Of a stretch of 29,365 bases of DNA, positions 408 through 22,464 are shown in pieces (position 1 is the stretch's first letter; each line of letters starts with the position of its first letter). This DNA is from a virus. The notes beneath the pieces are model-generated. The model was not told where the DNA came from. It saw nothing but the letters and a program-made list of their open reading frames with translations, and did no database searches. Where the stretch lies: the UHGV virus genome UHGV-0335882. One strand, given 5' to 3'. The position numbers and the translations under genes were made by a program.

Positions 408-411
408 GGGA

Positions 412-1110: not shown

Positions 1111-1439
1111 CAGTTCACCACCTGTTCAAACTCTGCGCTGAACTCAACACGCAGCATACTGACCCGCGACGACCATTTTGCGCAGGTCACCTTTATCTGC
1201 TGCCACTCATAAGGCGGCGTCCACAGAAAGGATTTCCAGCCCCCGTGCTCTTCCAGAAACGACTCCAGTACCGTGGCCTCCTCACGGGGGACAGAAAGCG
1301 TCACGCTGTACGTTTTCAGGTTGGCATTCAGCCCGGCAGGCGCTCGCTGAGAATAGCCATCACCAAAGCGCACCTTTCTTACAGAAGGGACCGAAGCCAC
1401 ATCCATACCGGGTTTCACTTTCCAGCGGAAGGTCTTCAT
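1110..1439 (-). CDS. M: Minor tail protein M
   Basis: 109-aa ORF (MKTFRWKVKPGMDVASVPSVRKVRFGDGY...) matches lambda gpM; overlaps the H stop by 4 nt as in lambda. Confidence 0.95.
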   Translation of the reverse strand: MKTFRWKVKPGMDVASVPSVRKVRFGDGYSQRAPAGLNANLKTYSVTLSVPREEATVLESFLEEHGGWKSFLWTPPYEWQQIKVTCAKWSSRVSMLRVEFSAEFEQVVN

Positions 1440-3997
1440 CGTCCACCTCCGGAGAACAGGCCACCATCACGCATCTGTGTCTGAATTTCATCACGGGCAC
1501 CCTTGCGGGCCATGTCATACACCGCCTTCAGAGCAGCCGGACCTATCTGCCCGTTCGTGCCGTCGTTGTTAATCACCACATGGTTATTCTGCTCAAACGT
1601 CCCGGACGCCTGCGACCGGCTGTCTGCCATGCTGCCCGGTGTACCGACATAACCGCCGGTGGCATAGCCGCGCATCAGCCGGTAAAGATTCCCCACGCCA
1701 ATCCGGCTGGTTGCCTCCTTCGTGAAGACAAACTCACCACGGTGAACAATCCCCGCTGGCTCATATTTGCCGCCGGTTCCCGTAAATCCTCCGGTTGCAA
1801 AATGGAATTTCGCCGCAGCGGCCTGAATGGCTGTACCGCCTGACGCGGATGCGCCGCCACCAACAGCCCCGCCAATGGCGCTGCCGATACTCCCGACAAT
1901 CCCCACCATTGCCTGCTTAAGCAGAATTTCTGTCATCATGGACAGCACGGAACGGGTGAAGCTGCGCCAGTTCTGCTCACTGCCGGTCAGCATCGCCGCC
2001 ATATTCTGTGCAATACCATCAAAGGTCTGCGTGGCTGCACTTTTTACCTGCGACATACTGTCCGTGGCGCTCTCTTCCCACTCACTCCAGCCGGACTTCA
2101 GGCCTGCCATCCAGTTCCCGCGAAGCTGGTCTTCAGCCGCCCAGGTCTTTTTCTGCTCTGACATGACGTTATTCAGCGCCAGCGGATTATCGCCATACTG
2201 TTCCTTCAGGCGCTGTTCCGTGGCTTCCCGTTCTGCCTGCCGGTCAGTCAGCCCCCGGCTTTTCGCATCAATGGCGGCCCGTTTTGCCCGTTGCTGCTGT
2301 GCGAATTTATCCGCCTGCTGCGCCAGCGCGTTCAGGCGCTCCTGATACGTAACCTTGTCGCCAAGTGCAGCCAGCTGGCGTTTGTACTCCAGCGTCTCAT
2401 CTTTATGCGCCAGCAGGGATTTCTCCTGTACAGACAGCTGGCGACGTTGCGCCGCCTCCTCCAGTACCGCGAACTGACTCTCCGCCTTCCACAAATCCCG
2501 GCGCTGCTGGCTGATTTTCTCATTTGCTCCGGCATGCTTCTCCAGCGTCCGGAGTTCAGCCTGAAGCGTCAGCAGGGCAGCATGAGCACTGTCTTCCTGA
2601 CGATCGCCCGCAGACACCTTCACGCCGGACTGCTTCGGCTTTTTCAGTGTCGTTTCATAGTCCTTTTTCGCTGCCGCCATCAGCGTGTTGTAATCTGCCT
2701 GCAGGATTTTTCCGTCTTTCAGGGCCTTATTCAGTTCTTCCTGACGGGCGGCATATTTCTCCAGCGGCGTCTGCAGCCGTTCGTAAGCCTTCTGCGCCTC
2801 TTCGGTATATTTCAGCCGTGACGCTTCGGTATCGCTCTGCTGCTGCGCATTTTTGTCCTGTTGACTCTGCTGTTCAGCCTTCTTTCGGGCGGCTTCAAGC
2901 GCAAGACGGGCCTTTTCACGATCATCCCAGTAACGCGCCCGCGCTTCATCGTTAACAAAATAATCATCCTTGCGCAGATTCCAGATGTCGTCTGCTTTCT
3001 TAAACGCAGCCTCTGCCTTAATCAGCATCTCCTGCGCGGTATCAGGACGACCAATATCCAGCACCGCATCCCACATGGATTTGAATGCCCGCGCAGTCCT
3101 GTCTGCCCAGGTCTCCAGCGTGCCCATGTTCTCTTTCAGGCGGCGGGTCTGGTCATCAAACCCTTTCGTTGCGGCCTCGTTCGCCGCCTGCAATGCCCCG
3201 GCTTCATCGCCGGAACGCTGCAACTGAGCAACATACGCAATCTGCTCCGCCGTCACGTTATGGAACTGGCGTGCCATCGCCGTCAGCCCCGACGTCGGGT
3301 CTGTGGTCAGCTTCCCGAAGGCTTCAGCGACCTTGTCCACCTCCACGCCGGATGCAGAGGAGAAACGCGCCACACTCTGGCTGATGGACGCAATCTGAGC
3401 CTCACCGCTTACCCCCGCCTTAACCAGTGCGCTGAGTGACTCGCTGGTCTGGTTAAACGTCAGCCCTGCCGCCTGCCCGGCTCTGGACAGGACCAGCATA
3501 CGATCTGCCGTCAGACCCGCCTGATTGCCGGAAAGGACCAGCGTTTTGTTGAAATCGGACAGGGTTGAGTTGCCCTGATACCAGGCATACGCCAGCGCAC
3601 CGGTCGCCACCGCCAGCGAGGTGGCCCCCACCATCGGCAGGGTGATCGCACCGGCAAGCCCCCTGAACATGGGGATCATCCCGCCGAAGGAGTCCTTCAC
3701 CTGCCCCCCCTGTTGCAGCAGGATCAGCCACGGACTTTGCCCGCCTGCAAGCTGCGTGGCCACGTCGGTGAACTGTGCAGGCAGCATACGCATGGCGGCT
3801 TTATACTGCCCGACGGAAATCCCCGCTTTCTGTGCAGCCAGCGCCTGTCGGCTCAGCGACTGTTCAACGACTGCCGCTGTTTTTTTCGCATCACTTTCCG
3901 TACCGGAAAAATGACGCCTGACTCTGGCCATCTGCTCGTCAAATCTGGCCGCATCCAGACTCAAATCAACGACCAGATCGCCTACCGGTTCAGCCAT
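1436..3997 (-). CDS. H: Tail tape measure protein H
   Basis: 853-aa ORF, same length as lambda gpH and near-identical along its length (MAEPVGDLVVDLSLDAARFDEQMARV... ...MRDGGLFSGGGR). Confidence 0.95.
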   Translation of the reverse strand: MAEPVGDLVVDLSLDAARFDEQMARVRRHFSGTESDAKKTAAVVEQSLSRQALAAQKAGISVGQYKAAMRMLPAQFTDVATQLAGGQSPWLILLQQGGQVKDSFGGMIPMFRGLAGAITLPMVGATSLAVATGALAYAWYQGNSTLSDFNKTLVLSGNQAGLTADRMLVLSRAGQAAGLTFNQTSESLSALVKAGVSGEAQIASISQSVARFSSASGVEVDKVAEAFGKLTTDPTSGLTAMARQFHNVTAEQIAYVAQLQRSGDEAGALQAANEAATKGFDDQTRRLKENMGTLETWADRTARAFKSMWDAVLDIGRPDTAQEMLIKAEAAFKKADDIWNLRKDDYFVNDEARARYWDDREKARLALEAARKKAEQQSQQDKNAQQQSDTEASRLKYTEEAQKAYERLQTPLEKYAARQEELNKALKDGKILQADYNTLMAAAKKDYETTLKKPKQSGVKVSAGDRQEDSAHAALLTLQAELRTLEKHAGANEKISQQRRDLWKAESQFAVLEEAAQRRQLSVQEKSLLAHKDETLEYKRQLAALGDKVTYQERLNALAQQADKFAQQQRAKRAAIDAKSRGLTDRQAEREATEQRLKEQYGDNPLALNNVMSEQKKTWAAEDQLRGNWMAGLKSGWSEWEESATDSMSQVKSAATQTFDGIAQNMAAMLTGSEQNWRSFTRSVLSMMTEILLKQAMVGIVGSIGSAIGGAVGGGASASGGTAIQAAAAKFHFATGGFTGTGGKYEPAGIVHRGEFVFTKEATSRIGVGNLYRLMRGYATGGYVGTPGSMADSRSQASGTFEQNNHVVINNDGTNGQIGPAALKAVYDMARKGARDEIQTQMRDGGLFSGGGR

Positions 3998-4828
3998 ACC
4001 GGACTCCTCCTGCGATCCCTTCTGATACTGTCATCAGCATTACGTCATCCTCCGTCATGTCCGCCACATCCGGGGAAGCGGGGATAACTTCATTCCCGTC
4101 CGGGCCAAAGCGGACACCTCCGGCAAGCCCTGCCGCTTTCTGCATCAGCACATCATCTTCAGGCTCTTCGTCAGCCTCGCGCCGGTTCAGCAGACTGAAA
4201 TCCAGCGGATGCATATCCGGATCGCTGAAAAACAGGCTGAGCACGGTGTACGTCAGCCCGGAAAAGTGCATATCCAGCAGAACATCATGAAAATAATGGG
4301 TACTGTAAAAGCGGTGCCAGTCGGCATACTCCGTGGATGACATCCCGGCAAGCATGGCACGCCAGTCGGGTCGCCCCATCTCACGCGCCAGTTTCAGGGC
4401 AAAACTCAGCTCACCGTCGAACACTTTCCCGCAGAAACAGGCTCTGCAGGCCCGGCGTCCTCTGCCTGTTCGGGGGCATTATTCACCACAAACTCATACA
4501 TACCGGACAGCCGGTACACCACGTTTTCAGCATGAGAAATTGCCTCTGTGGGCCAGGTGGTAAGCACTTCCTGCTCAATCTGTTTAACGGCTTCATTCAT
4601 GGACGGCATCTGCGTCTTCTTCGGATGGTTATGCCACAGGGACATCGCCACCAGAAACGCGCCGGTTCTGATGACGTCTTCCACAGTAACCTGCCGGTTG
4701 CTGTCGGATCCCGCCGGTTCTGCCTGCCGTTTCATCAGGGCAAGATGCTCAATACGCTGCAGGGCTGACAGTTCAGAAAGCGTGACGGTCACGCCGTTAT
4801 ATTCAAATGATTCGGTTTTCAGGAACAT
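3990..4828 (-). CDS. T: Tail assembly chaperone G-T fusion made by -1 programmed ribosomal frameshift (G frame 4828..4424, then T frame 4430..3990)
   Basis: T-frame ORF (FDGELSFALKLAREMGRPDW...) matches lambda gpT and overlaps the 3' end of G in the -1 frame. Slippery heptamer G GGA AAG is present at the overlap. Confidence 0.85.
4406..4828 (-). CDS. G: Tail assembly chaperone G
   Basis: 140-aa ORF (MFLKTESFEYNGVTVTLSELSALQRIEHLALMKRQ...) matches lambda gpG. Confidence 0.93.
   Translation of the reverse strand: MFLKTESFEYNGVTVTLSELSALQRIEHLALMKRQAEPAGSDSNRQVTVEDVIRTGAFLVAMSLWHNHPKKTQMPSMNEAVKQIEQEVLTTWPTEAISHAENVVYRLSGMYEFVVNNAPEQAEDAGPAEPVSAGKCSTVS
4424..4430 (-). other. -1 programmed frameshift slippery site G GGA AAG (G to G-T)
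   Basis: Minus-strand heptamer GGGAAAG, with GGA and AAG as zero-frame codons of G (…S A G K C S T V S stop). The -1 frame continues into the T ORF. Confidence 0.8.
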
Positions 4829-4843
4829 CGCTGACTCTCCGGA

Positions 4844-5584
4844 TTAACTGGCGGTGACGGTGATTTCTGCAACCGCAGCAAACTCACCATTACCGGATAC
4901 AACCGGAATGTTGACCTTGCCTGCAGCAACGCCGTTCACGGTGATGGTCATACCGCTGACCGACACGGTGGCTTTTGTTTTATCCGCAGACACCGCACGG
5001 AAGCTCTTGTCGGTTGCGCCCTCCGGCTGGAATGCCACGGTCAGCGTAGTGCTCTGCCCTTTCACTACGGAAGCACTGGCGGGTGTCACCGTCATGCCGG
5101 TTGTCGCCGTCACCGTGCTGCGATCTTCTGCCATCGACGGACGTCCCACGTTGGTGACTTTCACCGTGCGGGTGATCACTTCCTTCGCCGTCACCGCCTT
5201 ACCGATACTGCTGACCCAGCCGCGGAACACATCGACCGTGCCGTTCGGGAAGCGGATTTTATAGGCACGGGTATCCCCTTCATTAAACCACGCCAGCAGC
5301 GCCTGCTGCCCCTGCTCTCCGGGCATCCACGCCAGCGTGAAGCTGGTATCTCCGGCAGATTTCTGCCCCTGCCCGGTCGCAGTCCAGTCCGCATCTTCAT
5401 CATCGAGATAGCTGTCGTCATAGGACTCAGCGCTCAGTTCGCCGGGCGTCAGGTCTTTAACTTTAGCCAGACGCGACCAGTCAACGTCTGAAAGCGGGTT
5501 CGCATAAGGGTCACCGTTCCCCTTATAAACCCACAGGGTGGTCCCGGCCCCTTTCACCGGCATTACTGGATTTGGTACAGGCAT
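4844..5584 (-). CDS. V: Major tail protein V
   Basis: ORF matches lambda gpV from [22 protein letters not shown]... Start set at the internal ATG (5584) that corresponds to the lambda V start and has a GAGGA Shine-Dalgarno upstream; the track ORF extends 10 codons further 5'. Confidence 0.92.
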
Positions 5585-5591
5585 ATCGTCC

Positions 5592-5987
5592 TCACATTTC
5601 ATAGGTAATGACATAAGTCAGATCGGCTGAACTCCACAGGCCCGCATCATCGTCGCGCCGGTAGTCATAGCCACTGGCCACCATACTGGTGATCAAATCT
5701 GACAGTGCCGGGACATCGCTCATCACCGGATAAATCCGGGACTCCATCCACGAATCCAGCTCTGAATCCGGCACCTGAGCAGGCAGGAAAACTTCAATAT
5801 GCAGCTCCGCCTGCCAGGTATCGCTGTCCAGCTCTTCGCCCGTGTATTCAGCGCCGGTGAGATAAACGGCAACTGCCGGAAAATCCTCCTCATCAAAAAC
5901 AGCGGGGCGACCATCAAAAAGCGTCGCCCCGGTGTCATGTTTTTCCAGTGCATCCAGTACGGCTGCACGGAGTTCTGTATGTTTCAT
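5592..5987 (-). CDS. U: Tail terminator protein U
   Basis: 131-aa ORF ([36 protein letters not shown]...) matches lambda gpU. Confidence 0.93.
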
Positions 5988-6562
5988 CGCTTTATTACCA
6001 TCCTCAGTTGATGCTGCAGCGCATAGCCCAGCTCTTTCGGAAGACGTTCACGCCGTATCCGCTCAATATTCTGTTTAAACGCCGTGGTCAGCGGCACTGC
6101 CATCGGGATTTTCACCACATCAATGGGGTAACGGTTTTTCCCGGCCACACGCTGCATGACATGCCATCGGCCATTTTTCAGTTGCTGAATAAACGCGCCG
6201 GGAATACGACGGTTTCCCACCACAAGCACGCTGTCGCCACCTTTCAGGGATGAACGCTGCCCCTTTTTACGACGCCTGCGTCGGGACAGGACAACCCGCG
6301 CGTTACCCAGCCTGATTACGGGCAAATCCCCCCGGTTAACCTTGATTCTGGCCTGCGGATTTTTGACCGTGGCCCTTTTCAGCCTGGCCCTTTCCTTTAC
6401 CAGTTTCCGGCGTACCTTTGTCTCACGGGCAACCTGTGACGCCGACTGCGATATCGCGGATGAAGCAACGCGGTTAATGGCCATTGCGGCGGCACCGGGC
6501 ACCGCCGTTCTGCTGATACGGCTGAGGTTTTCAACGGCCTGCTCAAGACCTTTTATGGCCAT
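5984..6562 (-). CDS. Z: Tail completion protein Z
   Basis: 192-aa ORF (MAIKGLEQAVENLSRISRTAVPGAAAMAINRV...) matches lambda gpZ; 4-nt overlap with U. Confidence 0.93.
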   Translation of the reverse strand: MAIKGLEQAVENLSRISRTAVPGAAAMAINRVASSAISQSASQVARETKVRRKLVKERARLKRATVKNPQARIKVNRGDLPVIRLGNARVVLSRRRRRKKGQRSSLKGGDSVLVVGNRRIPGAFIQQLKNGRWHVMQRVAGKNRYPIDVVKIPMAVPLTTAFKQNIERIRRERLPKELGYALQHQLRMVIKR

Positions 6563-6573
6563 ACATCCCCCCT

Positions 6574-6927
6574 TCAGCGACGACGGTTAACGGCAGGCGG
6601 CACGCCACGCCCAAGCCAGAGATGACAGCTTCCGCCATCATCCGTCGAAATCCGGTCTATCCAGAAGTTTTCCTCACCGATGGTCAGCGTGTCGCCGCGC
6701 CGCAGCTGCCGCACATCATCAGTCCGGACAAACAGGGACGGGCTGGAGCCTTCAACGCGCACGCCCTGTCCGGCATAGCTGATATTTTCAGGGTCATCAA
6801 AAACACCACGTATTACTGCGCCGGACTGCTCACCGGATGTCATGGTGGCTGACGTTCCCATGTACCCGCGTATCGTTTCATCGGCGCGGACAATGGCAGC
6901 ATCGAACAGGTTATCGAAATCAGCCAC
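6574..6927 (-). CDS. FII: Head-tail joining protein FII
   Basis: 117-aa ORF (MADFDNLFDAAIVRADETIRGYMGTSATMTSGEQ...) matches lambda gpFII. Confidence 0.93.
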   Translation of the reverse strand: MADFDNLFDAAIVRADETIRGYMGTSATMTSGEQSGAVIRGVFDDPENISYAGQGVRVEGSSPSLFVRTDDVRQLRRGDTLTIGEENFWIDRISTDDGGSCHLWLGRGVPPAVNRRR

Positions 6928-6938
6928 AGCGCCTCCCG

Positions 6939-7337
6939 TTATTGCATTCTGGCCAGGCCACGTTCTGTCATTTCGGCTGCCACACCGGCAGAGACACGGA
7001 ACGCCGTTCCCGGAAGCACAAATGCCACAGGTTCATCCCGCGTGGCGTGAAGTGCATCAGTATGCAGCGTCACCAGTGCCACGACCGTGACCAGTTCAGA
7101 CGTATCCAGAATCACGGTATCCGGCTGCGCTGATCCCACCTCATTTTCATGTCCGGTCAGCACATTTTCCCGGCTGAGAGGGGTGTCCTGACCGGCAGTT
7201 TCATCCGTGTCATCAAGCTCCTCTTCCAGCTCTGCCACACGGAGCGCCAGTTCTTCTTTCGTCCCCGTCAGGCTGACATCACGGTTCAGTTGTTCACCCA
7301 GCGAGCGGAGACGGGCAATCAGTTCATCTTTCGTCAT
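6939..7337 (-). CDS. FI: DNA packaging/head completion protein FI
   Basis: ORF matches lambda gpFI from MTKDELIARLRSLGEQLNRDVSLTGTKEELALRVAEL... Start set at the internal ATG (7337) preceded by GGAGG; the track ORF extends 13 codons 5'. Confidence 0.9.
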   Translation of the reverse strand: MTKDELIARLRSLGEQLNRDVSLTGTKEELALRVAELEEELDDTDETAGQDTPLSRENVLTGHENEVGSAQPDTVILDTSELVTVVALVTLHTDALHATRDEPVAFVLPGTAFRVSAGVAAEMTERGLARMQ

Positions 7338-7378
7338 GGACTCCTCCACAGAGAAACAATGGCCCCGAAGGGCCATGA

Positions 7379-8404
7379 TTACGCCAGTTGTACGGACACG
7401 AACTCATCAGGGTCAGCCAGCAGCATCAGCGGTGCTGACTGAATCATGGTGAACTCACGCGCCGGATCGCCGGTGGTCACCCAGTTTTTCGGGTAACGGG
7501 CAGAGGCGTTAATGCCTTCGAGCTGTGCGTCCGCATCCTGAATGCAGCCATAGGTGCGCAGACCGCGTGCCTGAGTGTTCCCCAGCACCATCGTGTTGTC
7601 CGGCAGGAAGTTCTTTTTGACGCCGTTTTCCACGTACTGTCCGGAATACACGACGATGGCCACATCGCCATACATCCCCTTATAGGACACCGCTTTACCC
7701 AGGTCTTTCACCGCTGTCTCCAGCTCGGAATTAGAACCACGACGGGTATCCAGCTTCTCCTTGACGGCTTTGAAGGAACGGAACAGCGCCCAGCCTTTCG
7801 GATCGAACACGATGATATTCACCACACCGCTGGCGTTCAGCGCGTAGGCTTCGATATCGTCGGTCGGGTCATACGTGGACTTGTCACGCTTGCTCCACTC
7901 CGTGCCGCCGGACTGCGTGATGTTATTCTCCTCACTGCGGCCCATATCCACCTCAACCGGATCGAAGGCTTCACCGGTCATGGTGTATTTGCCCTTAAGC
8001 ACGGCAGAAACTGCCTGCATCTCTTCGACCTGAGCAATGGCCAGCTCTTCGTCACGCATGTTCTGCATGATGATGCGACGGCGGCGGTAAGCCGGGTCCA
8101 CCAGATTCTGCGGATCTTCATCCGGCAGGCGACGCAGGGTCATCTGCGGATTCACTTCATGCTTCGGCTTGACATATCCCGGCGTAAATTCAGAGGTGGA
8201 GCCGCCACGGGAACGGATAACCTCACCGGAAACAATCGGCGAAACGTACAGCGCCATGTTTACCAGTCCCGGAATTTGTGAGAGATAGACTTTCTCCGTG
8301 GTGAAGGGATAGCTCTCACGGAAAAAGAGACGCAGAAACAGCGGATCAAACTTAAATTTCTGCTCATTTGCCGCCAGCAGCTGGGCGGTTGTGTACATCG
8401 ACAT
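7379..8404 (-). CDS. E: Major capsid protein E
   Basis: ORF matches lambda gpE (341 aa) from MSMYTTAQLLAANEQKFKFDPLFLRLFFRESYPF... Start set at the internal ATG (8404) corresponding to the lambda E start. Confidence 0.93.
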   Translation of the reverse strand: MSMYTTAQLLAANEQKFKFDPLFLRLFFRESYPFTTEKVYLSQIPGLVNMALYVSPIVSGEVIRSRGGSTSEFTPGYVKPKHEVNPQMTLRRLPDEDPQNLVDPAYRRRRIIMQNMRDEELAIAQVEEMQAVSAVLKGKYTMTGEAFDPVEVDMGRSEENNITQSGGTEWSKRDKSTYDPTDDIEAYALNASGVVNIIVFDPKGWALFRSFKAVKEKLDTRRGSNSELETAVKDLGKAVSYKGMYGDVAIVVYSGQYVENGVKKNFLPDNTMVLGNTQARGLRTYGCIQDADAQLEGINASARYPKNWVTTGDPAREFTMIQSAPLMLLADPDEFVSVQLA

Positions 8405-8413
8405 AAAAAAATC

Positions 8414-8438
8414 CCGTAAAAAAAGCCGCACAGGCGGC
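8414..8438 (-). terminator. Intrinsic-terminator-like hairpin between D and E (GCCGCCTGTGCGGC followed by T7 on the minus strand)
   Basis: GC-rich inverted repeat with a U-run on the coding (minus) strand in the D-E gap. Lies inside the late operon, so it would normally be read through under antitermination. Confidence 0.4.
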
Positions 8439-8459
8439 CTTTAGTGATGAAGGGTAAAG

Positions 8460-8792
8460 TTAAACGATGCTGATTGCCGTTCCGGCAAACGCGGTCCGTT
8501 TTTTCGTCTCGTCGCTGGCAGCCTCCGGCCAGAGCACATCCTCATAACGGAACGTGCCGGACTTGTAGAACGTCAGCGTGGTGCTGGTCTGGTCAGCAGC
8601 AACCGCAAGAATGCCAACGGCAGCACCGTCGGTGGTGCCATCCCACGCAACCAGCTTACGGCTGGAGGTGTCCAGCATCAGCGGGGTCATTGCAGGCGCT
8701 TTCGCACTCAATCCGCCGGGCGCGGTTGCGGTATGAGCCGGGTCACTGTTGCCCAGCGGCTGGTAATGGGTAAAGGTTTCTTTGCTCGTCAT
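8460..8792 (-). CDS. D: Capsid decoration protein D
   Basis: ORF matches lambda gpD ([40 protein letters not shown]...); start at the ATG corresponding to the lambda D start. Confidence 0.93.
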
Positions 8793-8801
8793 AAACATCC
8801 C

Positions 8802-9407
8802 TTACACTGGTGTGTTCAGCAAATCGTTAACGGCATCAGATGCCAGGTTACCTGCAGCCAGCGGTGCCGGTGCCCCCTGCATCAGACGATCCAGCGCAGT
8901 GTCACTGCGCGCCTGTGCACTCTGTGGTGCAACTGCCAGAATGCGGCGGGCCGTTTCCACGGTCATACCAGGGGTTTCGGCCAGCACGCGTGCCTGTTCT
9001 TCGCGTCCGTGAGCTTCCTCACAGTTGAGGATCCCCATAATGCGACTGTTTTCTGCCGCAACCGCTGCGGTGATCTGCGCGTTCACGTCCGGCTGCGCAG
9101 CGCTGGCGTTCTCGCCCTCCGTCGCTGGCACCACGCCAGTAACGTCAGCCTGCGAAGCAGTGGCTGAAACAGTTGTTGATTGAGTCTCTTTGGTCATTCG
9201 CCCTCCTGAGAGACGGGATTTACGTGCATCCAGTGCATCACGCATGACGGTGATCGCATCGGTACTGTTAACAAGTTCATCAGCCAGTCCGGCATCAATG
9301 GCCTCCTGACCGCTGTACACTGCAGCCTCGGTATCCAGCACAGCCTGCACGGACAGGCCGGTATATGCCGACACCTTCTGTGCAAACATCCGGCGGGTTG
9401 CATCCAT
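8802..9407 (-). CDS. Nu3: Scaffolding protein Nu3 (in-frame internal start within C)
   Basis: Internal ATG at 9407 gives a 201-aa product (MDATRRMFAQKVSAYTGLSVQ... to the C stop), the same length and arrangement as lambda Nu3 nested in the C frame. Confidence 0.75.
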   Translation of the reverse strand: MDATRRMFAQKVSAYTGLSVQAVLDTEAAVYSGQEAIDAGLADELVNSTDAITVMRDALDARKSRLSGGRMTKETQSTTVSATASQADVTGVVPATEGENASAAQPDVNAQITAAVAAENSRIMGILNCEEAHGREEQARVLAETPGMTVETARRILAVAPQSAQARSDTALDRLMQGAPAPLAAGNLASDAVNDLLNTPV

Positions 9408-10101
9408 CCGGGACTGCAGTGTTTCCCGGACATCATCCGGTAGATGGCTGTAGGGGTTGCCATCCACCTTATGGCTGCCGCTGTAAATCAGCGTGATTTC
9501 CACGCCCTGTTTCTCCAGCGCAGCACCGTAATTACTGTGAGCCATCATGACGCCGATGGAGCCTGTCCGGGCGGTCTGCGTGACCAGACGTCGGGAGGCG
9601 GCGCTGGCAAGCAACTGACCTGCACTGCAGTTCATGTCGTTGGCCAGCGCCCATACCGGCTTTATGTCACGCACACGGGCGATGATGTCAGCGCAGTCAA
9701 ATGCCCCTGCCACCATCCCGCCTGGCGTATCCATATCGAGCAGAATGCCGTCCACCATCGGGTCGCTGGCAGCCTGTTGCAGACGGGCGATAATGCCGTT
9801 GTAACCGGTCATCCCCGAATACGGCTGCAGCGCTCGCGTCCGACTGACCAGCGTGCCGGACACCGGCAGCACGGCGATGCCGTTCATGACCTGATAACTG
9901 CGGGCCTGTCGTGGTCCGTCATCATCAACGGATAACGCCAGCGCCGCGGGTGCCTCTCCGGCAGTCAGGCTGTCGCCGGATACCGCATCCGTCAGGCGGC
10001 TGATCCCAAGCTGGCCTGCAAGCGCACAAAAGAAAACCCGCGCATAGGCGGGTTCAAGCATCAGCGGCTCATTAAAGGCCATACTGGCAATATGCGGGAG
10101 A

Positions 10102-10121
<20 letters not shown>
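8802..10121 (-). CDS. C: Head protease/scaffold-processing protein C (GTG start)
   Basis: ORF matches lambda gpC (439 aa) from TAELRNLPHIASMAFNEPLMLEPAYARVFF... The position equivalent to the lambda start is GTG (10121..10119), preceded by AGGAGG, giving the same 20-nt B/C overlap as lambda. Confidence 0.85.
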
Positions 10122-13802
<3,681 letters not shown>

Positions 13803-13828
<26 letters not shown>

Positions 13829-14348
13829 TCAGCAACCCCGGTATCAGTTCATCCAGCGCGGCTGCTTTGTTCATGGCTTTGATGATATCCCGTTTCAGGA
13901 AATCAACATGTCGGTTTTCCAGTTCCGGAAAACGCCGCTGCACCGACAGGGGGATCCCGTCGAGAATACTGGCAATTTCACCTGCGATCCGCGACAGCAC
14001 GAAAGTACAGAATGCGGTTTCCACCACTTCAGCGGAGTCTCTGGCATTTTTCAGCTCCTGTGCGTCGGCCTGCGCACGCGTAAGTCGATGGCGTTCGTAC
14101 TCAATAGTCCCTGGCTGGAGATCTGTCTCGCTGGCCTGTCGCAGTTCTTCAACCTCCCGGCGCAGCTTTTCGTTCTCAATTTCAGCATCCCTTTCGGCAT
14201 ACCATTTTATGACGTCGGCAGAGTCATAAAGCACCTCATTACCCTTCCCACCGCCTCGCAGAACGGGCATTCCCTGCTCCTGCCAGTTCTGAATAGTACG
14301 GATACTCGCGCCGAAAATGTCAGCCAGCTGCTTTTTGTTGACTTCCAT
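13803..14348 (-). CDS. Nu1: Terminase small subunit Nu1
   Basis: 181-aa ORF (MEVNKKQLADIFGASIRTIQNWQEQGMPVLRGGGKGNEVLYDSADVIKWY...) matches lambda Nu1; overlaps the A start as in lambda. Confidence 0.95.
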
Positions 14349-14349
14349 T

Positions 14350-14525
14350 GTTCATTCCACGGACAAAAACAGAGAAAGGAAACGACAGAGGCCAAAAAGC
14401 CCGTTTTCAGCACCTGTCGTTTCCTTTCTTTTCAGGGAGTGTTTTAAATAAAAACATTAAGTTACGGCGAAGAAGAACGGAAACGCCTTAAACCGGAAAA
14501 TTTTCATAAATAGCGAAAACCCGCG
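14350..14525 (-). other. cosB, terminase (Nu1) binding region with R-type repeats
   Basis: Reverse complement reads GGGCGGCGACCTCGCGGGTTTTCGCTATTTATGAAAATTTTCCGGTTTAAGGCGTTTCCGTTCTTCTTCG..., near-identical to the lambda left end as recalled. Repeated CGTTTCC/GGAAACG cores at about 14388-14398, 14416-14426 and 14466-14483 resemble lambda R1-R3. Confidence 0.75.
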
Positions 14526-14537
14526 AGGTCGCCGCCC
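14526..14537 (-). other. cosN, 12-nt cohesive-end sequence (GGGCGGCGACCT on the minus strand)
   Basis: Exact lambda cohesive-end 12-mer read on the minus strand, immediately upstream of the cosB-Nu1 region. Confidence 0.85.
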
Positions 14538-14685
14538 CGTAACCTGTTGGATCGACGGAAAGGACCCGAAAACGAGAATAATTATCACTTACAGCAAGAA
14601 TCGAATCTGATCTATTATGGTGCTTGCTATTATGTGCCGGCACAAGTGCGTCGTTTACCGTCATTTCACACAGAGGCATCATCAA

Positions 14686-14937
14686 ATGAAAATCAGAAAT
14701 ATTCTCGCTATCTCCCTTGCGACATCATCCTTCAGTTGCCTGGCATTTAAATCCTCGCCCAATGTGCTACCAGGACCAACGAATCAACTAACTGCGGTAG
14801 AAAGTAAAATTATCGGACATTTTTATGCCCCACACAGTACATTACCCGGAACAACCATCACAGGGACATGTGACGCCTCCCCCGTCCCGGGATGCACCTG
14901 TCCGTTTTGTACTATGCTGCGTAGCCAAAACCGATAA
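14686..14937 (+). CDS. Small secreted protein of unknown function (83 aa, Cys-containing)
   Basis: ATG at 14686 with GAGG 9 nt upstream. N-terminus MKIRNILAISLATSSFSCLA has signal-peptide character; mature part contains a TGTCDASPVPGCTCPFC cysteine cluster. The track ORF (from 14617) extends further 5' without a ribosome-binding site. No recognised family. Confidence 0.5.
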   Translation: MKIRNILAISLATSSFSCLAFKSSPNVLPGPTNQLTAVESKIIGHFYAPHSTLPGTTITGTCDASPVPGCTCPFCTMLRSQNR

Positions 14938-14998
14938 CATCCGCATTTACCTGGTATTCCATGATGAGTTCACGCAGCGACTGATAGAGGAAGGAAAG

Positions 14999-15178
14999 AT
15001 GGTTAGTAAAAGCAAGGCGCATTGCCGCCGCATGCTGCAGGCATTGCAACAGACGAGAGCAGGTATTTTTGACCAGTTGGAAAACTGCCAGCATACTTTG
15101 CCCGAGTATATCGCCATCTCATCGGAAACCAGTGCAACTCTTATTCATCGGGTTCCACCAGAGAAAAAGAAGAAATGA
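14999..15178 (+). CDS. Small hypothetical protein (59 aa, basic C-terminus)
   Basis: ATG at 14999 preceded by a strong GAGGAAGGA Shine-Dalgarno; in frame with track ORF 14825..15178 but starting after the stop of the upstream gene. Function unknown. Confidence 0.35.
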   Translation: MVSKSKAHCRRMLQALQQTRAGIFDQLENCQHTLPEYIAISSETSATLIHRVPPEKKKK

Positions 15179-15184
15179 ACAGTG

Positions 15185-15209
15185 AGGCGTTGTGTGGCAT
15201 ACAACGCCT
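15185..15209. terminator. Hairpin between convergent genes (AGGCGTTGT / loop 7 nt / ACAACGCCT)
   Basis: 9-bp perfect inverted repeat located between the plus-strand ORF ending at 15178 and the minus-strand lipoprotein gene ending at 15301; followed by TCTTCC on the plus strand. Confidence 0.4.
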
Positions 15210-15300
15210 TCTTCCATCATTCCTCGTCAGCCATGACAAAAATATAACCGCTGGCTCTTTCATTTTTCTCCTGCTTCCAGCCCCTCTCTACCTGGAAGCA

Positions 15301-15627
15301 TCAAGGACGTGACGGCGTAAAGATAAATTGTCTCTTCACTCCCTGACAGGGGCGATTCTTTTCAAATCGCCATTTCGCCATGGCCTTCACCACTTCATCA
15401 CGAAACAAATTATGAGGCTCTGAGCGGAGAAAAACGATCCGTGTCACAGTCCCATCAGCACCAATATCGAACTTAACCTCAACCAGCCCCTTGATATAAT
15501 TTGCTGCAGCATATTCCGGATATCGTGGATACACCGTCACTAATTGCCGGGGCTCATCAGCTTTTTGCTGCGAGCATCCCACTGCCAGGACAGATAACAG
15601 AAAAAGTAGTAAAAGGCGTCTTTTCAT
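15301..15627 (-). CDS. Lipoprotein with TonB C-terminal-like domain (108 aa)
   Basis: Start at internal ATG (15627): MKRRLLLLFLLSVLAVGCSQQ is a lipoprotein signal with lipobox LAVGC. Remainder aligns with the E. coli TonB C-terminal domain as recalled (GLVEVKFDIGADGTV...LFRDEVVKAMAKWRFEKNRP vs GQVKVKFDVTPDGRV...MFEREVKNAMRRWRYEPGKP). Confidence 0.8.
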   Translation of the reverse strand: MKRRLLLLFLLSVLAVGCSQQKADEPRQLVTVYPRYPEYAAANYIKGLVEVKFDIGADGTVTRIVFLRSEPHNLFRDEVVKAMAKWRFEKNRPCQGVKRQFIFTPSRP

Positions 15628-16092
15628 TTTTATTCCTACGGGTCTTATTCTGACAATATATCCTGTGTTCCAGACTGCCACATCACCACATCCTGTGCCA
15701 TTATCTGACTCACATTACATACATCGCATCGGGATACAGTAGTAGCACTTTCTGTAATACAGCTTCCTGTTTCTTCCACCATCGCACCGGGATAAACCCG
15801 CGAATCATTAACGCGGTAAAAACCCGGTGTGCATCGTTTTTAATTATTCCCGCACACTCACGCAGAAGGAATTCCCCGTCGGGCTACGGTCATGGTTAAT
15901 GCGGGAATACGGCGACGATACAGCGCAGCTAAAAGGGTAATGGACGGATAGACCGGTTTATTTCATTCCACAGGATTCTGAGTGTCCCCAACTTCCTCCA
16001 ATAGTCTGAGCCCACCTGTGTAGTTTTAATTTTCATCAATCCATTTAACTATCGTTTAATTGTTGTCACATAGGATTCTGCCGTTTTTAACA

Positions 16093-16236
16093 ATGCAGGA
16101 TAATAAGATGAAAAAAATGTTGTTTTCTGCCGCTCTGAGTCTGTTGTCGGCATTCTGGCAATGCAATTTGGATAAAGCGGGGATTAAAAAGATAGAGGCG
16201 AGCCGGTCAGGTAGAAATGAATCAGGCTCAAAGTGA
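16093..16236 (+). pseudogene. 5' stump of a bor/iss-family lipoprotein gene (first ~15 codons conserved, then unrelated sequence to a stop)
   Basis: Translation MQDNKMKKMLFSAAL... matches the N-terminus of Iss/Bor-family proteins as recalled. The lipobox (LITGC) and the rest of the protein are missing; the frame runs into unrelated sequence and stops after 47 codons. Position and orientation match where bor sits relative to cos in lambda. Confidence 0.6.
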
Positions 16237-16528: not shown

Positions 16529-16879
16529 ATGCCCCCACGAATCCCACGCGCCTGCCGTAAGCGTGGATGTGCAGGTACAACCACAGACAGTTCTGGTTAC
16601 TGCGATAAACATCGTGGCGAAGGATGGGTACAGCATCAACGCGGACTGAGCCGCCACCAGCGTGGCTATGGCTCGAAATGGGATGCCATACGTGCGCGCA
16701 TACTGAAGCGTGATAATCATCTGTGTCAGAACTGCCTGCGCAATGGGAGAGCCGTTGAAGCCAGAACTGTGGACCACATCATTCCGAAAGCTCATGGTGG
16801 CACGGATGCAGACAGTAACCTGCAGAGTCTGTGCTGGCCCTGTCATAAAGCAAAAACAGCGCGCGAACGCATCAATTGA
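16529..16879 (+). CDS. HNH endonuclease (terminase-associated, 116 aa)
   Basis: C-terminal HNH motif (CQNCLRNGRAVEARTVDHIIPKAHGGTDADSNLQSLCWPCHKAKT) with Cys-rich N-terminal part. Start set at ATG 16529 with GGAG 5 nt upstream; the track ORF starts further 5' at a TTG. Sits directly upstream of the terminase genes, as in HK97-type cos phages. Confidence 0.85.
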   Translation: MPPRIPRACRKRGCAGTTTDSSGYCDKHRGEGWVQHQRGLSRHQRGYGSKWDAIRARILKRDNHLCQNCLRNGRAVEARTVDHIIPKAHGGTDADSNLQSLCWPCHKAKTARERIN

Positions 16880-17026
16880 TAACAGTTCCCATCTGTAGGG
16901 GAGGGGCAGGCCAAATCTCTGCAACCCTGGCTGCTCAGTACCGCCGCCTGACCTTTCCTCGCATCGCCGCAGGTTCGAAAACTTTTTTTTGGAATGTGAT
17001 TAAATGATTGATAGGTAAAACCGATT
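16880..17026 (+). other. Intergenic region between HNH and small terminase; candidate cos site of the HK97-type module
   Basis: 147-bp non-coding gap at the position where HK97-type phages carry cos. Contains GC-rich motifs (GGGGAGGGGCAGG; CCGCCGCCTGACC, the latter resembling the CGCCGCC core of lambda cosN). Exact cut site not determinable by eye. Confidence 0.35.
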
Positions 17027-17509
17027 ATGTCTGGACCCCCGAAAACCCCGCCACGCCTGCATTTGATACGAGGCAACCCCTCAAAGCGGCCAGTTAAAGA
17101 CCTCAAAAAAACCGCTAAAAAGGATGAAAAAGGTCTCCCTAAAATTCCGCAACATTTAGGGGCGCAGGGGAAGTACTGGTTCAGGCGAATGGCGGAAGAG
17201 CTGAATGCGGAAGGGATCATTTCTCAGCTTGATGCGCGTGCGCTTGAGCTACTGGTGGAAGCCTATACCGAATACCGGCATCACTGCGAAACACTCGATG
17301 TTGAGGGGTACACCTACCGCTCGAAAACGCAGAACGGTGATGTGCTGATTAAGGCACACCCGGCTGCTGCGATGAAAGCGGATGCCTGGAAGCGGATCCG
17401 GGCGATGCTTGCAGAATTTGGTATGTCACCGGCAAGCCGGGCAAAAGTAAATACCGCCGGACCGGATAATGTTGATCCGCTGGCAGAGCTTTTAAAAGCG
17501 AGAGACTGA
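17027..17509 (+). CDS. Terminase small subunit (P27 family)
   Basis: 160-aa ORF with basic N-terminus and the C-terminal FGMSPASRAKV motif typical of the P27 family; immediately upstream of and overlapping the large terminase. Confidence 0.9.
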   Translation: MSGPPKTPPRLHLIRGNPSKRPVKDLKKTAKKDEKGLPKIPQHLGAQGKYWFRRMAEELNAEGIISQLDARALELLVEAYTEYRHHCETLDVEGYTYRSKTQNGDVLIKAHPAAAMKADAWKRIRAMLAEFGMSPASRAKVNTAGPDNVDPLAELLKARD

Positions 17510-19266
17510 TGGCAAAAGTGGCTGACGGGATCCGCTACGCCGAACGTGTTGTTGCAGGAGAAATTGTTGCTGGCGAATTTGTCCGCCTGGCCTGCCAGCG
17601 TTTTCTTGATGATCTGAAGTACGGCGAAAAGCGGGGGATTTATTTCAGTGAACCCCGTGCGCAGCACATCCTGAATTTCTACAAATTTGTGCCTCATGTA
17701 AAAGGGGCACTGGCAGGCCAGCCCATTGAGTTGATGGACTGGCATGTATTTATCCTCATTAATATTTTTGGTTTTGTCATTCCGCTGGTCAATGAAGAAA
17801 CCGGGGAAGTTGTCATGCGCAGCGATGGCAGCGGACGTCCGGTGATGGTGCGCCGGTTCCGGACGGCGTACAACGAAGTCGCCCGTAAAAACGCAAAATC
17901 AACCCTGTCATCGGGTATCGGCCTGTATATGACGGGGGCAGATAGTGAAGGCGGAGCTGAGGTGTATTCAGCCGCAACCACGCGTGACCAGGCCAGAATC
18001 GTGTTTGAAGACGCCAAAAATATGGTCAGAAAAGCCCGGTCGACACTCGGGCGGTTGTTTGATTTCAACAAGCTGGCGATTTACCAGGAGCAGAGCGCAT
18101 CAAAATTTGAACCGCTTTCCTCGGATGCAAACAACCTGGACGGTCTGAACATCCACTGCGCCATTATTGATGAGCTGCATGCACATAAAACCCGCGACGT
18201 GTGGGACGTTCTGGAAACGGCAACCGGTGCCCGTCTGCAGTCCCTGTTATTTGGTATCACCACGGCTGGCTTTAACAAGGAAGGGATTTGTTACGAGCAG
18301 CGTGATTACGCCATCAAGGTATTGCGAGGCTATAACAGCGACGTGGAGGGCGCTGTAAAAGACGACTCTTACTTTGCGATCATTTACACGCTTGATGAGG
18401 GAGATGATCCGTTTGATGAAACGGTCTGGCAGAAAGCGAATCCTGGCCTGGGCATCTGTAAACGCTGGGATGATCTGCGTCGTCTGGCGAAAAAAGCGAA
18501 GGAGCAGGTCTCTGCGCGGGTGAATTTTTTTACCAAACACATGAATGTGTGGGTCACTGCCGAATCTGCCTGGATGGATATGATTAAGTGGGAGAAGTGC
18601 GAATACATTGCTCCACAACATGAGCTGAAAACATATCCCATGTGGGTCGGCGTCGACCTTGCTCATAAGATTGATATCTGTGCGGCGGCAAAACTCTGGC
18701 GAACCGATAACGGACATGTTCATGCTGATTTTAAATTCTGGCTTCCGGAAGGACGGCTGGAACGATGCTCGCGGCAGCAGGCAGAACTTTACCGGAAGTG
18801 GGCGGAGATGGATAAGCTCATCCTGACGGATGGTGATGTTATCGATCATGCTCAGATAAAAAGTGACTTACTGGAATGGATTGGCGGTGAAAACCTCAGG
18901 GAACTGGGATTTGACCCGTGGAGCGCAATGCAGTTCAGTCTGGCACTGGCTGAAGAAGGGATACCGCTGGTGGAGGTTCCGCAGACGGTCCGCAATCTGT
19001 CAGAGGCCATGAAGGAAACGGAATCACTGGTTTATGCCGGGCGTTTCCATCACAGCAATCATCCGGTCATGAACTGGATGATGTCTAACGTTACTGTAAA
19101 ACCGGACAAAAACGACAACATCTTCCCGAATAAATCCACGCCGGAAGCCAAAATCGACGGCCCTGTTGCGCTTTTTACAGCCATGAGCCGCTTTCTGGTA
19201 AATGGCGGGGGCGTGAATGACTTTCTGTCCACGCTTGATCCTGATGAGGACCTGTTAATTCTGTGA
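17509..19266 (+). CDS. Terminase large subunit
   Basis: 585-aa ORF; start overlaps the small-terminase stop (TGATG); size, position and sequence character consistent with HK97-type large terminase. Confidence 0.93.
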   Translation: MAKVADGIRYAERVVAGEIVAGEFVRLACQRFLDDLKYGEKRGIYFSEPRAQHILNFYKFVPHVKGALAGQPIELMDWHVFILINIFGFVIPLVNEETGEVVMRSDGSGRPVMVRRFRTAYNEVARKNAKSTLSSGIGLYMTGADSEGGAEVYSAATTRDQARIVFEDAKNMVRKARSTLGRLFDFNKLAIYQEQSASKFEPLSSDANNLDGLNIHCAIIDELHAHKTRDVWDVLETATGARLQSLLFGITTAGFNKEGICYEQRDYAIKVLRGYNSDVEGAVKDDSYFAIIYTLDEGDDPFDETVWQKANPGLGICKRWDDLRRLAKKAKEQVSARVNFFTKHMNVWVTAESAWMDMIKWEKCEYIAPQHELKTYPMWVGVDLAHKIDICAAAKLWRTDNGHVHADFKFWLPEGRLERCSRQQAELYRKWAEMDKLILTDGDVIDHAQIKSDLLEWIGGENLRELGFDPWSAMQFSLALAEEGIPLVEVPQTVRNLSEAMKETESLVYAGRFHHSNHPVMNWMMSNVTVKPDKNDNIFPNKSTPEAKIDGPVALFTAMSRFLVNGGGVNDFLSTLDPDEDLLIL

Positions 19267-21246: not shown

Positions 21247-22464
21247 ATGAAACTTCATGAGATGAAGCAAAAACGAAACACCATTGCAAAGGATATGCGT
21301 GCACTGCATGAAAAAATTGGTGATAACGCATGGACTGATGAGCAACGGGCAGAGTGGAACAGGGCGAAAGCTGAGCTGGATGCGCTGGATGAGCAAATCG
21401 CCCGTGAAGAAGAGTTGCGCCGTCAGGATCAGGCATATGTGGATGAGTCCGGGCCGGAAGAGCGCCAGAATAATGAGGCGGAGAACGGGAAAAAGGCGGT
21501 GGAAGAGAAGCGCGCTGCGGCATTTAACCGTTTTCTGCGTGCCGGATTTGCAGAACTGAATGCTGAAGAGCGTAATCTGATGCGTGAACTGCGGGCTCAG
21601 AGTGTAACAACGGATTCTCAGGGCGGATATACGGTGCCCACGCAGATGCGTAACAAAATCATTGACACCATGAAGGCTTATGGCGGGATTGCCAGTGTGG
21701 CGCAACTTCTGACCACATCAACCGGGCAGGATATCACCTGGTCAACGTCTGATGGCACGACTGAAGAGGGCGAACTGCTGGCGGAAAATACAGCCGCAAC
21801 GGAACAGGATGTGACGTTCGGGACCGCTATTCTGGGGGCTAAAAAGCTGTCATCAAAAATAATTCGTGTGTCCAATGAGCTGCTCCAGGACAGTGGGGTG
21901 GATATTGAATCTTATCTGGCAAACCGTATTGCCCAGCGTATTGGTCGTGGAGAGGCAAAATATCTGGTTCAGGGGACCGGAACGGGATCACCGTTACAGC
22001 CAAAAGGGCTGGCAGCGTCGGTGACGGGAACCATCCAGACTGTAGCCTCTGCCGCTTTCACCTGGAAAGAAATGAATGCCCTGAAACATGCCATTGATCC
22101 GGCATATCGTGGTGGGCCGAAATACCGCTGGGCATTCAATGATGCCACATTGCAGACTATTGAAGAGATGGAGGATGGACAGAAACGCCCGTTATGGCTG
22201 CCGGATATTGCAGGCGGTACGCCGGCTACTGTGCTGGGGATCCCTTATGTTATTGATCAGGCTATTGACGGGATTGGTACCGGAAAAAAATTCATTTTCC
22301 TGGGGGATTTCAACCGCTTTATCATTCGCCGCGTTACTTATATGGAACTGAAACGTCTGGTTGAGCGTTATGCTGAGTTTGATCAGGTGGCATTTCTGGC
22401 TTTCCATCGTTTTGACTGTGTGCTGGAAGATGTGGCAGCCATCAAGGCGCTCACTGGCAAATAA
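21247..22464 (+). CDS. Major capsid protein (HK97 fold, with N-terminal delta/scaffold domain)
   Basis: 405-aa ORF; N-terminal ~100 aa is charged and coiled-coil-like (EQRAEWNRAKAELDALDEQIAREEELRRQ), typical of a delta domain removed by the adjacent protease; followed by an intrinsic terminator. Confidence 0.93.
   Translation: MKLHEMKQKRNTIAKDMRALHEKIGDNAWTDEQRAEWNRAKAELDALDEQIAREEELRRQDQAYVDESGPEERQNNEAENGKKAVEEKRAAAFNRFLRAGFAELNAEERNLMRELRAQSVTTDSQGGYTVPTQMRNKIIDTMKAYGGIASVAQLLTTSTGQDITWSTSDGTTEEGELLAENTAATEQDVTFGTAILGAKKLSSKIIRVSNELLQDSGVDIESYLANRIAQRIGRGEAKYLVQGTGTGSPLQPKGLAASVTGTIQTVASAAFTWKEMNALKHAIDPAYRGGPKYRWAFNDATLQTIEEMEDGQKRPLWLPDIAGGTPATVLGIPYVIDQAIDGIGTGKKFIFLGDFNRFIIRRVTYMELKRLVERYAEFDQVAFLAFHRFDCVLEDVAAIKALTGK

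What the first reader, a model, noticed from the sequence alone, without database searches (positions are those of the whole stretch)
16880..17026. Candidate second cos site between HNH endonuclease and small terminase
HK97-type cos phages place cos between the HNH endonuclease gene and the small terminase gene, and the HNH protein assists terminase cleavage. This 147-bp gap is non-coding and has GC-rich motifs (GGGGAGGGGCAGG; CCGCCGCCTGACC, the latter sharing CGCCGCC with lambda cosN). If genuine, the window holds two different cos sites about 2.4 kb apart.
Basis: inference. Interest (0 to 1): 0.4.

Follow-up and report, generated by a model that had tools for sequence, protein, structure and literature searches.

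The report
HK97/P27-type prophage cos site
The 147-bp gap between the HNH endonuclease and small terminase genes is very probably the DNA-packaging cut site (cos) of an HK97/phiP27-type E. coli prophage, an ordinary and widespread element that lies 2.4 kb from a lambda-type cos only because of an unusual, unexplained join between two prophages.

Summary
Observation confirmed; interpretation supported. Positions 16880-17026 are the non-coding gap between an HNH gene (16529-16879) and a P27-family small terminase gene (17027-17509), followed by an HK97-type large terminase.

The gap aligns colinearly with three mapped or annotated cos sites: the HK97 genome end, the SfI 10-nt run-off gap, and the cos feature in the phiP27 record. 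By this alignment the predicted cohesive end is a 10-nt 3' overhang, CGCCGCCTGA (16942-16951).

The site has three parts:
- **Left arm.** A conserved G-box (16898-16921) sits at an invariant 18-bp distance from the core, and this arm travels with the HNH type.
- **Core.** It contains the predicted cut positions.
- **Right arm.** Positions 16952-16990 (CGCCGC ... CT8) co-vary with the TerS type, so this is the likely TerS site.

A true lambda cosN lies at 14526-14537, so two cos sites are indeed 2.4 kb apart and divergent. That depends on a junction at 16137/16138 which I found in no public sequence searched. Both halves are 100% identical to two ST131 prophages that lie about 885 kb apart.

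This is a new member of a known kind, of low interest. Virion ends were not testable here.

The parts
16529..16879 (+). HNH endonuclease gene, the packaging accessory nuclease (116 aa from ATG 16529; the longest ORF starts at TTG 16430)
   Evidence: Pfam HNH E = 1.9e-16. 90% aa identity to the phiP27 HNH and 37% to HK97 gp74 over 70 aa. The best match among solved structures is 5H0M, a chain named 'HNH endonuclease'.
16880..17026 (+). Non-coding HNH-TerS gap, the cos region
   Evidence: The same gap is present in 869 of 5426 complete E. coli genomes.
16898..16921 (+). G-box GGGGAGGGGCAGGCCAAATCTCTG, the conserved left-arm element. I infer it is a cosQ-like termination signal or an HNH/TerL docking site.
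   Evidence: It is conserved in HK97, phiP27, SfV/SfI/SfIV, ST64B and Klebsiella and Morganella phages. Its distance to the core is 18 bp in 62 of 62 cases.
16922..16939 (+). Spacer of variable sequence and fixed length (18 nt)
   Evidence: The spacer sequence tracks the HNH type.
16942..16951 (+). Predicted cohesive end: a 10-nt 3' overhang, CGCCGCCTGA. The bottom-strand nick would fall between 16941 and 16942 and the top-strand nick between 16951 and 16952.
   Evidence: Column-for-column alignment with the last 10 nt of the HK97 record, CGCCGCCAAA, the SfI run-off gap TGCCCGCCCC and the annotated phiP27 cos CGCCCGCCCC. HK97 ends are 10-nt 3' overhangs.
16952..16990 (+). Right arm, the inferred TerS recognition site: CGCCGC at 16965-16970 (+14..+19) and C+T8 at 16982-16990 (+31..+39)
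   Evidence: It is conserved only among phages whose TerS is at least 52% identical to this one, and is replaced together with the TerS type. It overlaps the +15..+29 TerS site of HK97.
17027..17509 (+). Small terminase, Terminase_4 / P27 family
17509..19266 (+). Large terminase, HK97 type
   Evidence: Pfam TerL_ATPase and TerL_nuclease. 28% identity to HK97 gp2, E = 6e-41. The only solved-structure hit is HK97 TerL 6Z6D, E = 1e-35.
14526..14537 (-). The other cos: lambda cosN 12-mer GGGCGGCGACCT, belonging to the lambda-like module (Nu1 13803-14348, gpA 11903-13828, minus strand)
16137..16138 (.). Junction between the two prophage segments: codon 10 of the iss/bor gene of the lambda-like prophage is fused to DNA that lies 135 nt upstream of the iss gene of the HK97-like prophage
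   Evidence: each half is 100% identical to ST131 genomes but never contiguous. The junction is absent from every collection searched.

Best explanation
The gap is the cohesive-end site of an HK97/phiP27-type temperate phage.

Inferred mechanism, by homology with HK97. On concatemeric phage DNA the P27-family TerS binds the right arm (about 16962-16990, a GC core plus an A/T tract) just inside the left genome end. The HK97-type TerL, helped by the adjacent HNH nuclease, makes two nicks 10 nt apart, between 16941/16942 on the bottom strand and 16951/16952 on the top strand. This leaves a 3' overhang CGCCGCCTGA. DNA is then packaged rightwards, starting with terS. The G-box (16898-16921), held exactly 18 bp from the core, lies in the last DNA to enter the head. 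It most likely positions TerL/HNH, or signals termination as lambda cosQ does.

Shown here: gene context, colinearity with mapped sites, the fixed position of the motif, and the co-variation of each arm with its neighbouring gene.

Inferred only: the exact nicks, the roles of the right arm and the G-box, and whether the site is active in this strain.
For: Context: an HNH gene, a 147-bp gap, a Terminase_4 TerS, then TerL, portal, protease and capsid genes, all intact and on one strand. TerL is of HK97 type.

Colinear alignment with HK97, phiP27, SfIV/SfI/SfV and ST64B places the window's CGCCGCCTGA on the mapped 10-mers. The SfI 10-nt gap comes from run-off sequencing of virion DNA. HK97 has 10-nt 3' overhangs.

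Of 96 viral contigs that carry the composite motif and have enough flank, 93 have an HNH gene upstream and 93 a TerS gene downstream. Of 80 loci chosen only by HNH protein similarity, 61 carry the composite within 120 nt of the HNH end, always with an 18-nt spacer. There were 0 matches on the opposite strand in 259 kb.

Mosaicism: the same left arm occurs with window-type or SfV-type right arms, and the switch falls inside the 10-mer. The window's HNH is 90% identical to that of phiP27 and the left-arm DNA is about 84% identical. TerS is only 19% identical and the right-arm DNA is unrelated.

The HK97 TerS site at +15..+29 overlaps the conserved right-arm block.
Against: There are no virion-end data for this prophage or for any phage with the exact CGCCGCCTGA variant.

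The closest 'phage' records (ON4706xx) are PHASTER predictions from assemblies, not virion DNA.

In this window the module is cut off from its lysis and early genes at 16138, so the site may be inert here.

18 of the 80 HNH-selected loci show no composite within 1.5 kb downstream.
Confidence: 0.9

Rival explanations
1. The sequence is a cos site by descent but is functionally dead here. The prophage module is a truncated remnant, or an assembly artefact, separated from its lysis, replication and regulatory genes at 16138. The site is then never cut unless a related helper phage supplies terminase. This is compatible with the main explanation; it concerns activity only.
For: The junction at 16137/16138 removes the R-Rz-iss region that precedes HNH in the intact prophage. 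Each half is 100% identical to prophages that lie about 885 kb apart in ST131 genomes.
Against: All packaging and head genes in the window are intact. The gap is 100% identical to that of the intact prophage in strain 4/0. The junction may not exist in the living strain.
Confidence: 0.3
2. The conserved sequences are the target or homing site of a selfish HNH homing endonuclease rather than a packaging signal. The mosaic breakpoint would then reflect recombination induced by the endonuclease.
For: Several records annotate the gene as 'homing endonuclease'. A recombination boundary falls in the core.
Against: Mapped virion ends of HK97 and SfI lie exactly at the homologous position. HK97 gp74 stimulates terminase cleavage of cos in vitro. 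The gene-order linkage to TerS/TerL is near universal.
Confidence: 0.04
3. The gap is an ordinary regulatory intergenic region (a late-operon promoter, terminator or translation signals), and the true packaging site is elsewhere or the phage packages by headful.
For: The gap precedes the first gene of the structural operon and contains a T-run.
Against: No promoter-like or terminator-like site was found and no stable fold. TerL is of the HK97 cos type. The G-box-N18-core composite is specific to this position and strand.
Confidence: 0.03

Closest known systems
phiP27 cos site (Stx2e phage, NC_003356, annotated cos 21806-21815, CGCCCGCCCC)
   Same: The gene order is the same: HNH, cos, P27-family TerS, TerL. 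The HNH proteins are 90% identical. The left arm (G-box, spacer, GGAC) is about 84% identical in DNA, with the same spacing.
   Different: The core is CGCCGCCTGA instead of CGCCCGCCCC. The right arm is unrelated and TerS is only 19% identical.
HK97 cos (10-nt 3' overhang; needs TerS gp1, TerL gp2 and HNH gp74)
   Same: The same G-box ... 18 nt ... ACCGCCGCC arrangement ends exactly at the HK97 genome end. TerL is homologous (E = 6e-41). The HNH is related. A GC core plus an A/T tract lies at a similar offset downstream.
   Different: HK97 TerS shows no sequence similarity and matched no Pfam family in my scan. In HK97 the HNH gene ends 319 nt before the genome end rather than 62 nt before the cut. 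The last three overhang bases differ (AAA against TGA).
Shigella phages SfI/SfV/SfIV and Salmonella ST64B cos (TGCCCGCCCC; mapped by run-off sequencing in SfI)
   Same: HNH-cos-TerS order, G-box, spacing, and GGAC before the 10-mer.
   Different: The core variant, the right arm (TTTTTTTATACCCGCGAAAAATGAAATTT) and the TerS subtype differ (25-29% identity).
Lambda cos (cosQ-cosN-cosB, 12-nt 5' overhang), present in this window at 14526-14537
   Same: In concept it is also tripartite: a termination element, a nick site and a TerS-binding arm. It shares the heptamer CGCCGCC.
   Different: The terminase is different (Nu1/gpA), the overhang is 5' and 12 nt, and no HNH is involved. The heptamer is oriented the other way relative to the packaging direction and occurs at chance frequency.

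Membership tests
HK97-type (HNH-assisted, 3'-overhang) cos site | Lies between an HNH endonuclease gene and the small terminase gene, on the same strand, at the head of the structural operon | tested here: met
   The same arrangement is seen in 90 of 96 motif-bearing viral contigs.
HK97-type (HNH-assisted, 3'-overhang) cos site | The associated large terminase belongs to the HK97 cos TerL lineage | tested here: met
   BLASTP against HK97 gp2 gives E = 6e-41. The only solved-structure hit is 6Z6D, E = 1e-35. Pfam finds TerL_ATPase and TerL_nuclease.
HK97-type (HNH-assisted, 3'-overhang) cos site | The sequence is homologous and colinear with experimentally mapped cos cores | tested here: met
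   Alignment with the HK97 ends, the SfI 10-nt gap and the annotated phiP27 cos.
HK97-type (HNH-assisted, 3'-overhang) cos site | Virion DNA carries fixed ends with a 10-nt 3' single-stranded extension at this site | not testable with these tools
   No virion reads are available. The closest records are in-silico prophage predictions.
HK97-type (HNH-assisted, 3'-overhang) cos site | A specific TerS-binding site lies just downstream of the cut (+15..+29 in HK97) | tested here: inconclusive
HK97-type (HNH-assisted, 3'-overhang) cos site | Cleavage depends on, or is stimulated by, the HNH protein | not testable with these tools
   Known for HK97 gp74. Here there is only the gene linkage.
Lambda-type cos (cosQ/cosN/cosB) | A cosN 12-mer GGGCGGCGACCT (or a near variant) adjacent to Nu1/gpA | tested here: not met
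   The only match is at 14526-14537, next to Nu1, and not in the gap. The gap shares only a chance-level heptamer.
pac (headful) packaging site | A TerL of a headful lineage, with the pac site usually inside or near terS | tested here: not met
   TerL matches the HK97 cos TerL. Relatives have fixed ends.

The most novel reading that the evidence does not exclude
The G-box (GGGGAGGGGCRGGTCAAATCYCTG), held exactly 18 bp from the cut site, may be an undescribed cos subsite. It is shared by HK97, phiP27, SfV-like and many Klebsiella and Morganella phages whose TerS proteins are otherwise unrelated. It would act as a cosQ-like termination signal or as the docking site that positions HNH/TerL. The 10-nt cohesive end itself would be the joint at which HNH-linked left arms and TerS-linked right arms are exchanged between phages. 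I found no description of such an element in the HK97 papers I could read, but the original HK97, phiP27 and HNH papers were not available.
Probability: 0.4. Interest if true: 0.4.

Novelty: new member of a known kind. Interest (0 to 1): 0.2.

Why it matters
The result pins down, to the base, the predicted genome ends of a prophage family carried by about one in six complete E. coli genomes, including ST131. That helps with prophage annotation, with orienting phage genomes and with interpreting transduction. The comparative by-products give testable hypotheses for HK97-type packaging termination and for how packaging modules are shuffled: an invariant 18-bp G-box spacing, and arms that co-vary with HNH and with TerS. 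The cos site itself is not surprising.

Tried and rejected
1. Sequence comparison of the window's TerS with HK97 TerS found nothing: BLASTP, Pfam, and a PDB phmmer search.

3. I looked for the 16137/16138 junction in several places and found it in none:
- complete E. coli genomes;
- GTDB species genomes;
- IMG/VR;
- exact lookup of four ORFs that span it.
I did not scan the metagenome collection.

4. I searched IMG/VR for other phages with the inverted core seen in phage CharmingMan and found none.

5. The ON4706xx 'phage' records are PHASTER predictions, not virion sequences, so they give no evidence about ends.

6. The phiP27 paper (PMC127862) and Kala et al. 2014 (PMC4000778) are not held. 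Their content is cited only through other papers or through the GenBank feature.

7. A promoter, terminator or hairpin reading of the gap is rejected.

8. CGCCGCC as evidence of kinship with lambda cosN is rejected as chance level.

Full report
**What is there.**
The window holds two phage structural modules pointing away from each other.
- Positions 1-14348 carry a lambda-like module on the minus strand: Nu1 at 13803-14348, Pfam Phage_Nu1 E = 2.9e-100, and gpA at 11903-13828.
- The exact lambda cosN 12-mer GGGCGGCGACCT is at 14526-14537 on the minus strand.
- From 16138 rightwards lies an HK97-like module on the plus strand: HNH (16529-16879), a 147-bp gap, a Terminase_4/P27-family TerS (17027-17509), TerL (17509-19266), then portal, protease and capsid genes.

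The finding's coordinates and both quoted motifs are correct. The gap has no promoter-like or terminator-like site and no unusual fold. Close relatives differ by single-base changes in the length of the T-run, so the gap is not coding.

**Comparison with mapped cos sites.**
BLAST of the region finds phiP27, whose record carries a 10-nt 'cos-site' feature between its HNH and TerS genes. Read out, that feature is CGCCCGCCCC.

For Shigella phage SfI, run-off sequencing of virion DNA showed a 10-nt gap, TGCCCGCCCC (PMC3636060). The SfI record ends with exactly these bases. A gap, rather than an overlap, is what 3' protruding ends produce; that last point is my inference.

The HK97 record starts at GTTTGAATTT and ends with ...AAATGAC CGCCGCCAAA. 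HK97 ends are 10-nt 3' overhangs (PMC9410871 figure legend; PMC11331095). PhageTerm places the two HK97 termini 11 positions apart and classes the phage as COS(3').

In a multiple alignment all of these are colinear with the window:
- HK97: GAC|CGCCGCCAAA|G
- phiP27: GAC|CGCCCGCCCC|G
- SfI: GAC|TGCCCGCCCC|A
- window: TAC|CGCCGCCTGA|C

The predicted cohesive end is therefore CGCCGCCTGA at 16942-16951.

**Anatomy and evidence that it is more than chance.**
The alignment shows four blocks:
1. A G-box, GGGGAGGGGCRGGTCAAATCYCTG (window 16898-16921), conserved even in HK97.
2. A spacer of variable sequence.
3. The core, (G/T)ACCGCCGCC.
4. A right-arm block, ...CA(T/C)CGCCGCAGGTT.GAAAACTTTTTTTT..., found only in phages with the window's TerS type (mEp235, Fraca, CharmingMan, and Klebsiella and Morganella phages).

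The composite pattern occurs once in the window and in none of 100 shuffles.

In IMG/VR the pattern hit at least 120 contigs. Of the 96 with enough flank, 93 have an HNH gene upstream on the same strand, 93 have a TerS gene downstream, and 90 have both.

To avoid circularity I also collected 80 loci by HNH protein similarity alone:
- 61 carry the composite within 120 nt of the HNH end.
- The spacer is 18 nt in all 62 matches.
- The opposite strands (259 kb) have no match.

The same gap is present in 869 of 5426 complete E. coli genomes.

**The arms travel with different genes.**
The window's HNH is 90% identical to that of phiP27, and the left-arm DNA is about 84% identical. TerS is 19% identical and the DNA similarity stops at the core.

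Across the viral contigs, one and the same left arm (for example spacer ACGGCAAAGGCCCAAAGG, HNH 79% identical) is joined either to the window-type right arm with a 60-62% identical TerS, or to the SfV-type right arm with a 29% identical TerS. phiP27-type left arms also occur with window-type right arms. The switch falls within the 10-mer, after CGCC(C)GCC.

This is what is expected if the right arm is the TerS recognition site and the left arm serves HNH and/or TerL. For HK97, TerS binds +15..+29 downstream of the cut, reading a G and an adjacent A-tract (PMC11331095). In the window the invariant elements of the right arm are CGCCGC at +14..+19 and C+T8 at +31..+39.

**Proteins.**
- TerL's only solved-structure relative is HK97 TerL 6Z6D (E = 1e-35; 28% identity).
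- The best solved-structure match of the HNH is 5H0M, a chain named 'HNH endonuclease'.
- TerS has no sequence link to HK97 TerS.

So the site works like the HK97 cos, and by sequence it is closest to the phiP27/SfV group.

**The 'two cos sites 2.4 kb apart'.**
This is true in the window (14526-14537 and 16942-16951), and the two sites are divergent. It depends, however, on a join at 16137/16138.

Codon 10 of the iss/bor gene of the lambda-like prophage is fused to DNA that normally lies 135 nt upstream of the oppositely oriented iss of the HK97-like prophage.

Each half is 100% identical over its full length to ST131-lineage genomes. In no complete genome are the halves contiguous. In strain 4/0 the two intact prophages are about 885 kb apart, each with its own R-Rz-iss region.

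The junction sequence is absent from GTDB species genomes and from IMG/VR. ORFs spanning it are not on record.

I cannot tell whether it is a strain-specific rearrangement or an assembly chimera. Either way the proximity has no evident function. Each cos directs packaging away from the other, and neither module is linked to its own early and lysis genes here.

The heptamer CGCCGCC shared with lambda occurs 13 times in the window against 6.5 expected. It also has the opposite orientation relative to the packaging direction. It is not evidence of relatedness.

**Verdict.**
This is the cos site of an HK97/phiP27-type prophage, a new, unmapped sequence variant of a well-known kind. The exact nick positions, the TerS site and the role of the G-box are inferences from homology and co-variation. 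Virion-end mapping would settle them. Interest is low, about 0.2. The invariant G-box spacing and the exchange of arms at the cohesive end are the only mildly new points.

Noticed in passing
window 16137-16138: A head-to-head join of two different prophages inside iss/bor (codon 10). Both halves are 100% identical to ST131 prophages that lie about 885 kb apart. The junction is in no complete E. coli genome, GTDB species genome or IMG/VR contig, and ORFs spanning it are not on record. There is no microhomology at the join. The breakpoint on the HK97-like side coincides roughly with the end of the inverted iss-region homology shared by the two prophages.
   Followed up: partly
window 16898-16939 and loci L020-L224: The G-box is separated from the cos core by exactly 18 nt in 62 of 62 HNH-linked sites, although the spacer sequence varies. 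HK97 has the same spacing. This suggests a protein-binding element phased to the nick sites.
   Followed up: partly
loci L037/L079, L123/L065, L109, L179: Mosaic joints between HNH-linked left arms and TerS-linked right arms fall inside the 10-nt cohesive end, after CGCC(C)GCC. The last 2-3 overhang bases travel with the right arm.
   Followed up: partly
L017 (phage CharmingMan, PP925830), about 490-510 of the locus: The cos core appears inverted: CCTTAGGCGGCGGTCCTTT is the reverse complement of the usual AAAGGACCGCCGCCTAAGG. It is flanked by GCGCC...GGCGC, between a normal G-box and a normal right arm. No second example was found in IMG/VR. It may be an assembly artefact at the physical genome ends.
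   Followed up: partly
window 14360-14540: A complete lambda-type cos region next to Nu1: an exact cosN 12-mer at 14526-14537 on the minus strand, with the cosB side towards Nu1.
   Followed up: partly
window 14617-15681: A moron-like block sits between the lambda-type cos and iss: two overlapping plus-strand ORFs without any Pfam match (14617-14937, 14825-15178) and a minus-strand TonB_C-domain protein with a signal-peptide-like N-terminus (15301-15681, Pfam E = 1.1e-12).
   Followed up: no
L011 636-725, L013 612-749, L017 468-629, L009 549-701: Several phage records annotate small 'hypothetical protein' genes over the homologous cos gap. Given the single-base length changes of the T-run and the conserved DNA motifs, these are probably spurious gene calls.
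   Followed up: no
loci L190-L223 (18 of the 80 HNH-selected loci): HNH proteins about 80% identical to the window's have no G-box/core composite within 1.5 kb downstream. In many of them the HNH gene is followed directly by a Cys-rich coding sequence. This looks like a different gene context for the same HNH family.
   Followed up: no
L010 (phage Fraca, LR597645) 1-200: Fraca has the window-type right arm and TerS, but neither the G-box nor CCGCCGCC to the left of it. Its HNH homologue lies about 3 kb from the other end of the record. It has either a different left arm or an unusual linearisation of the record.
   Followed up: no
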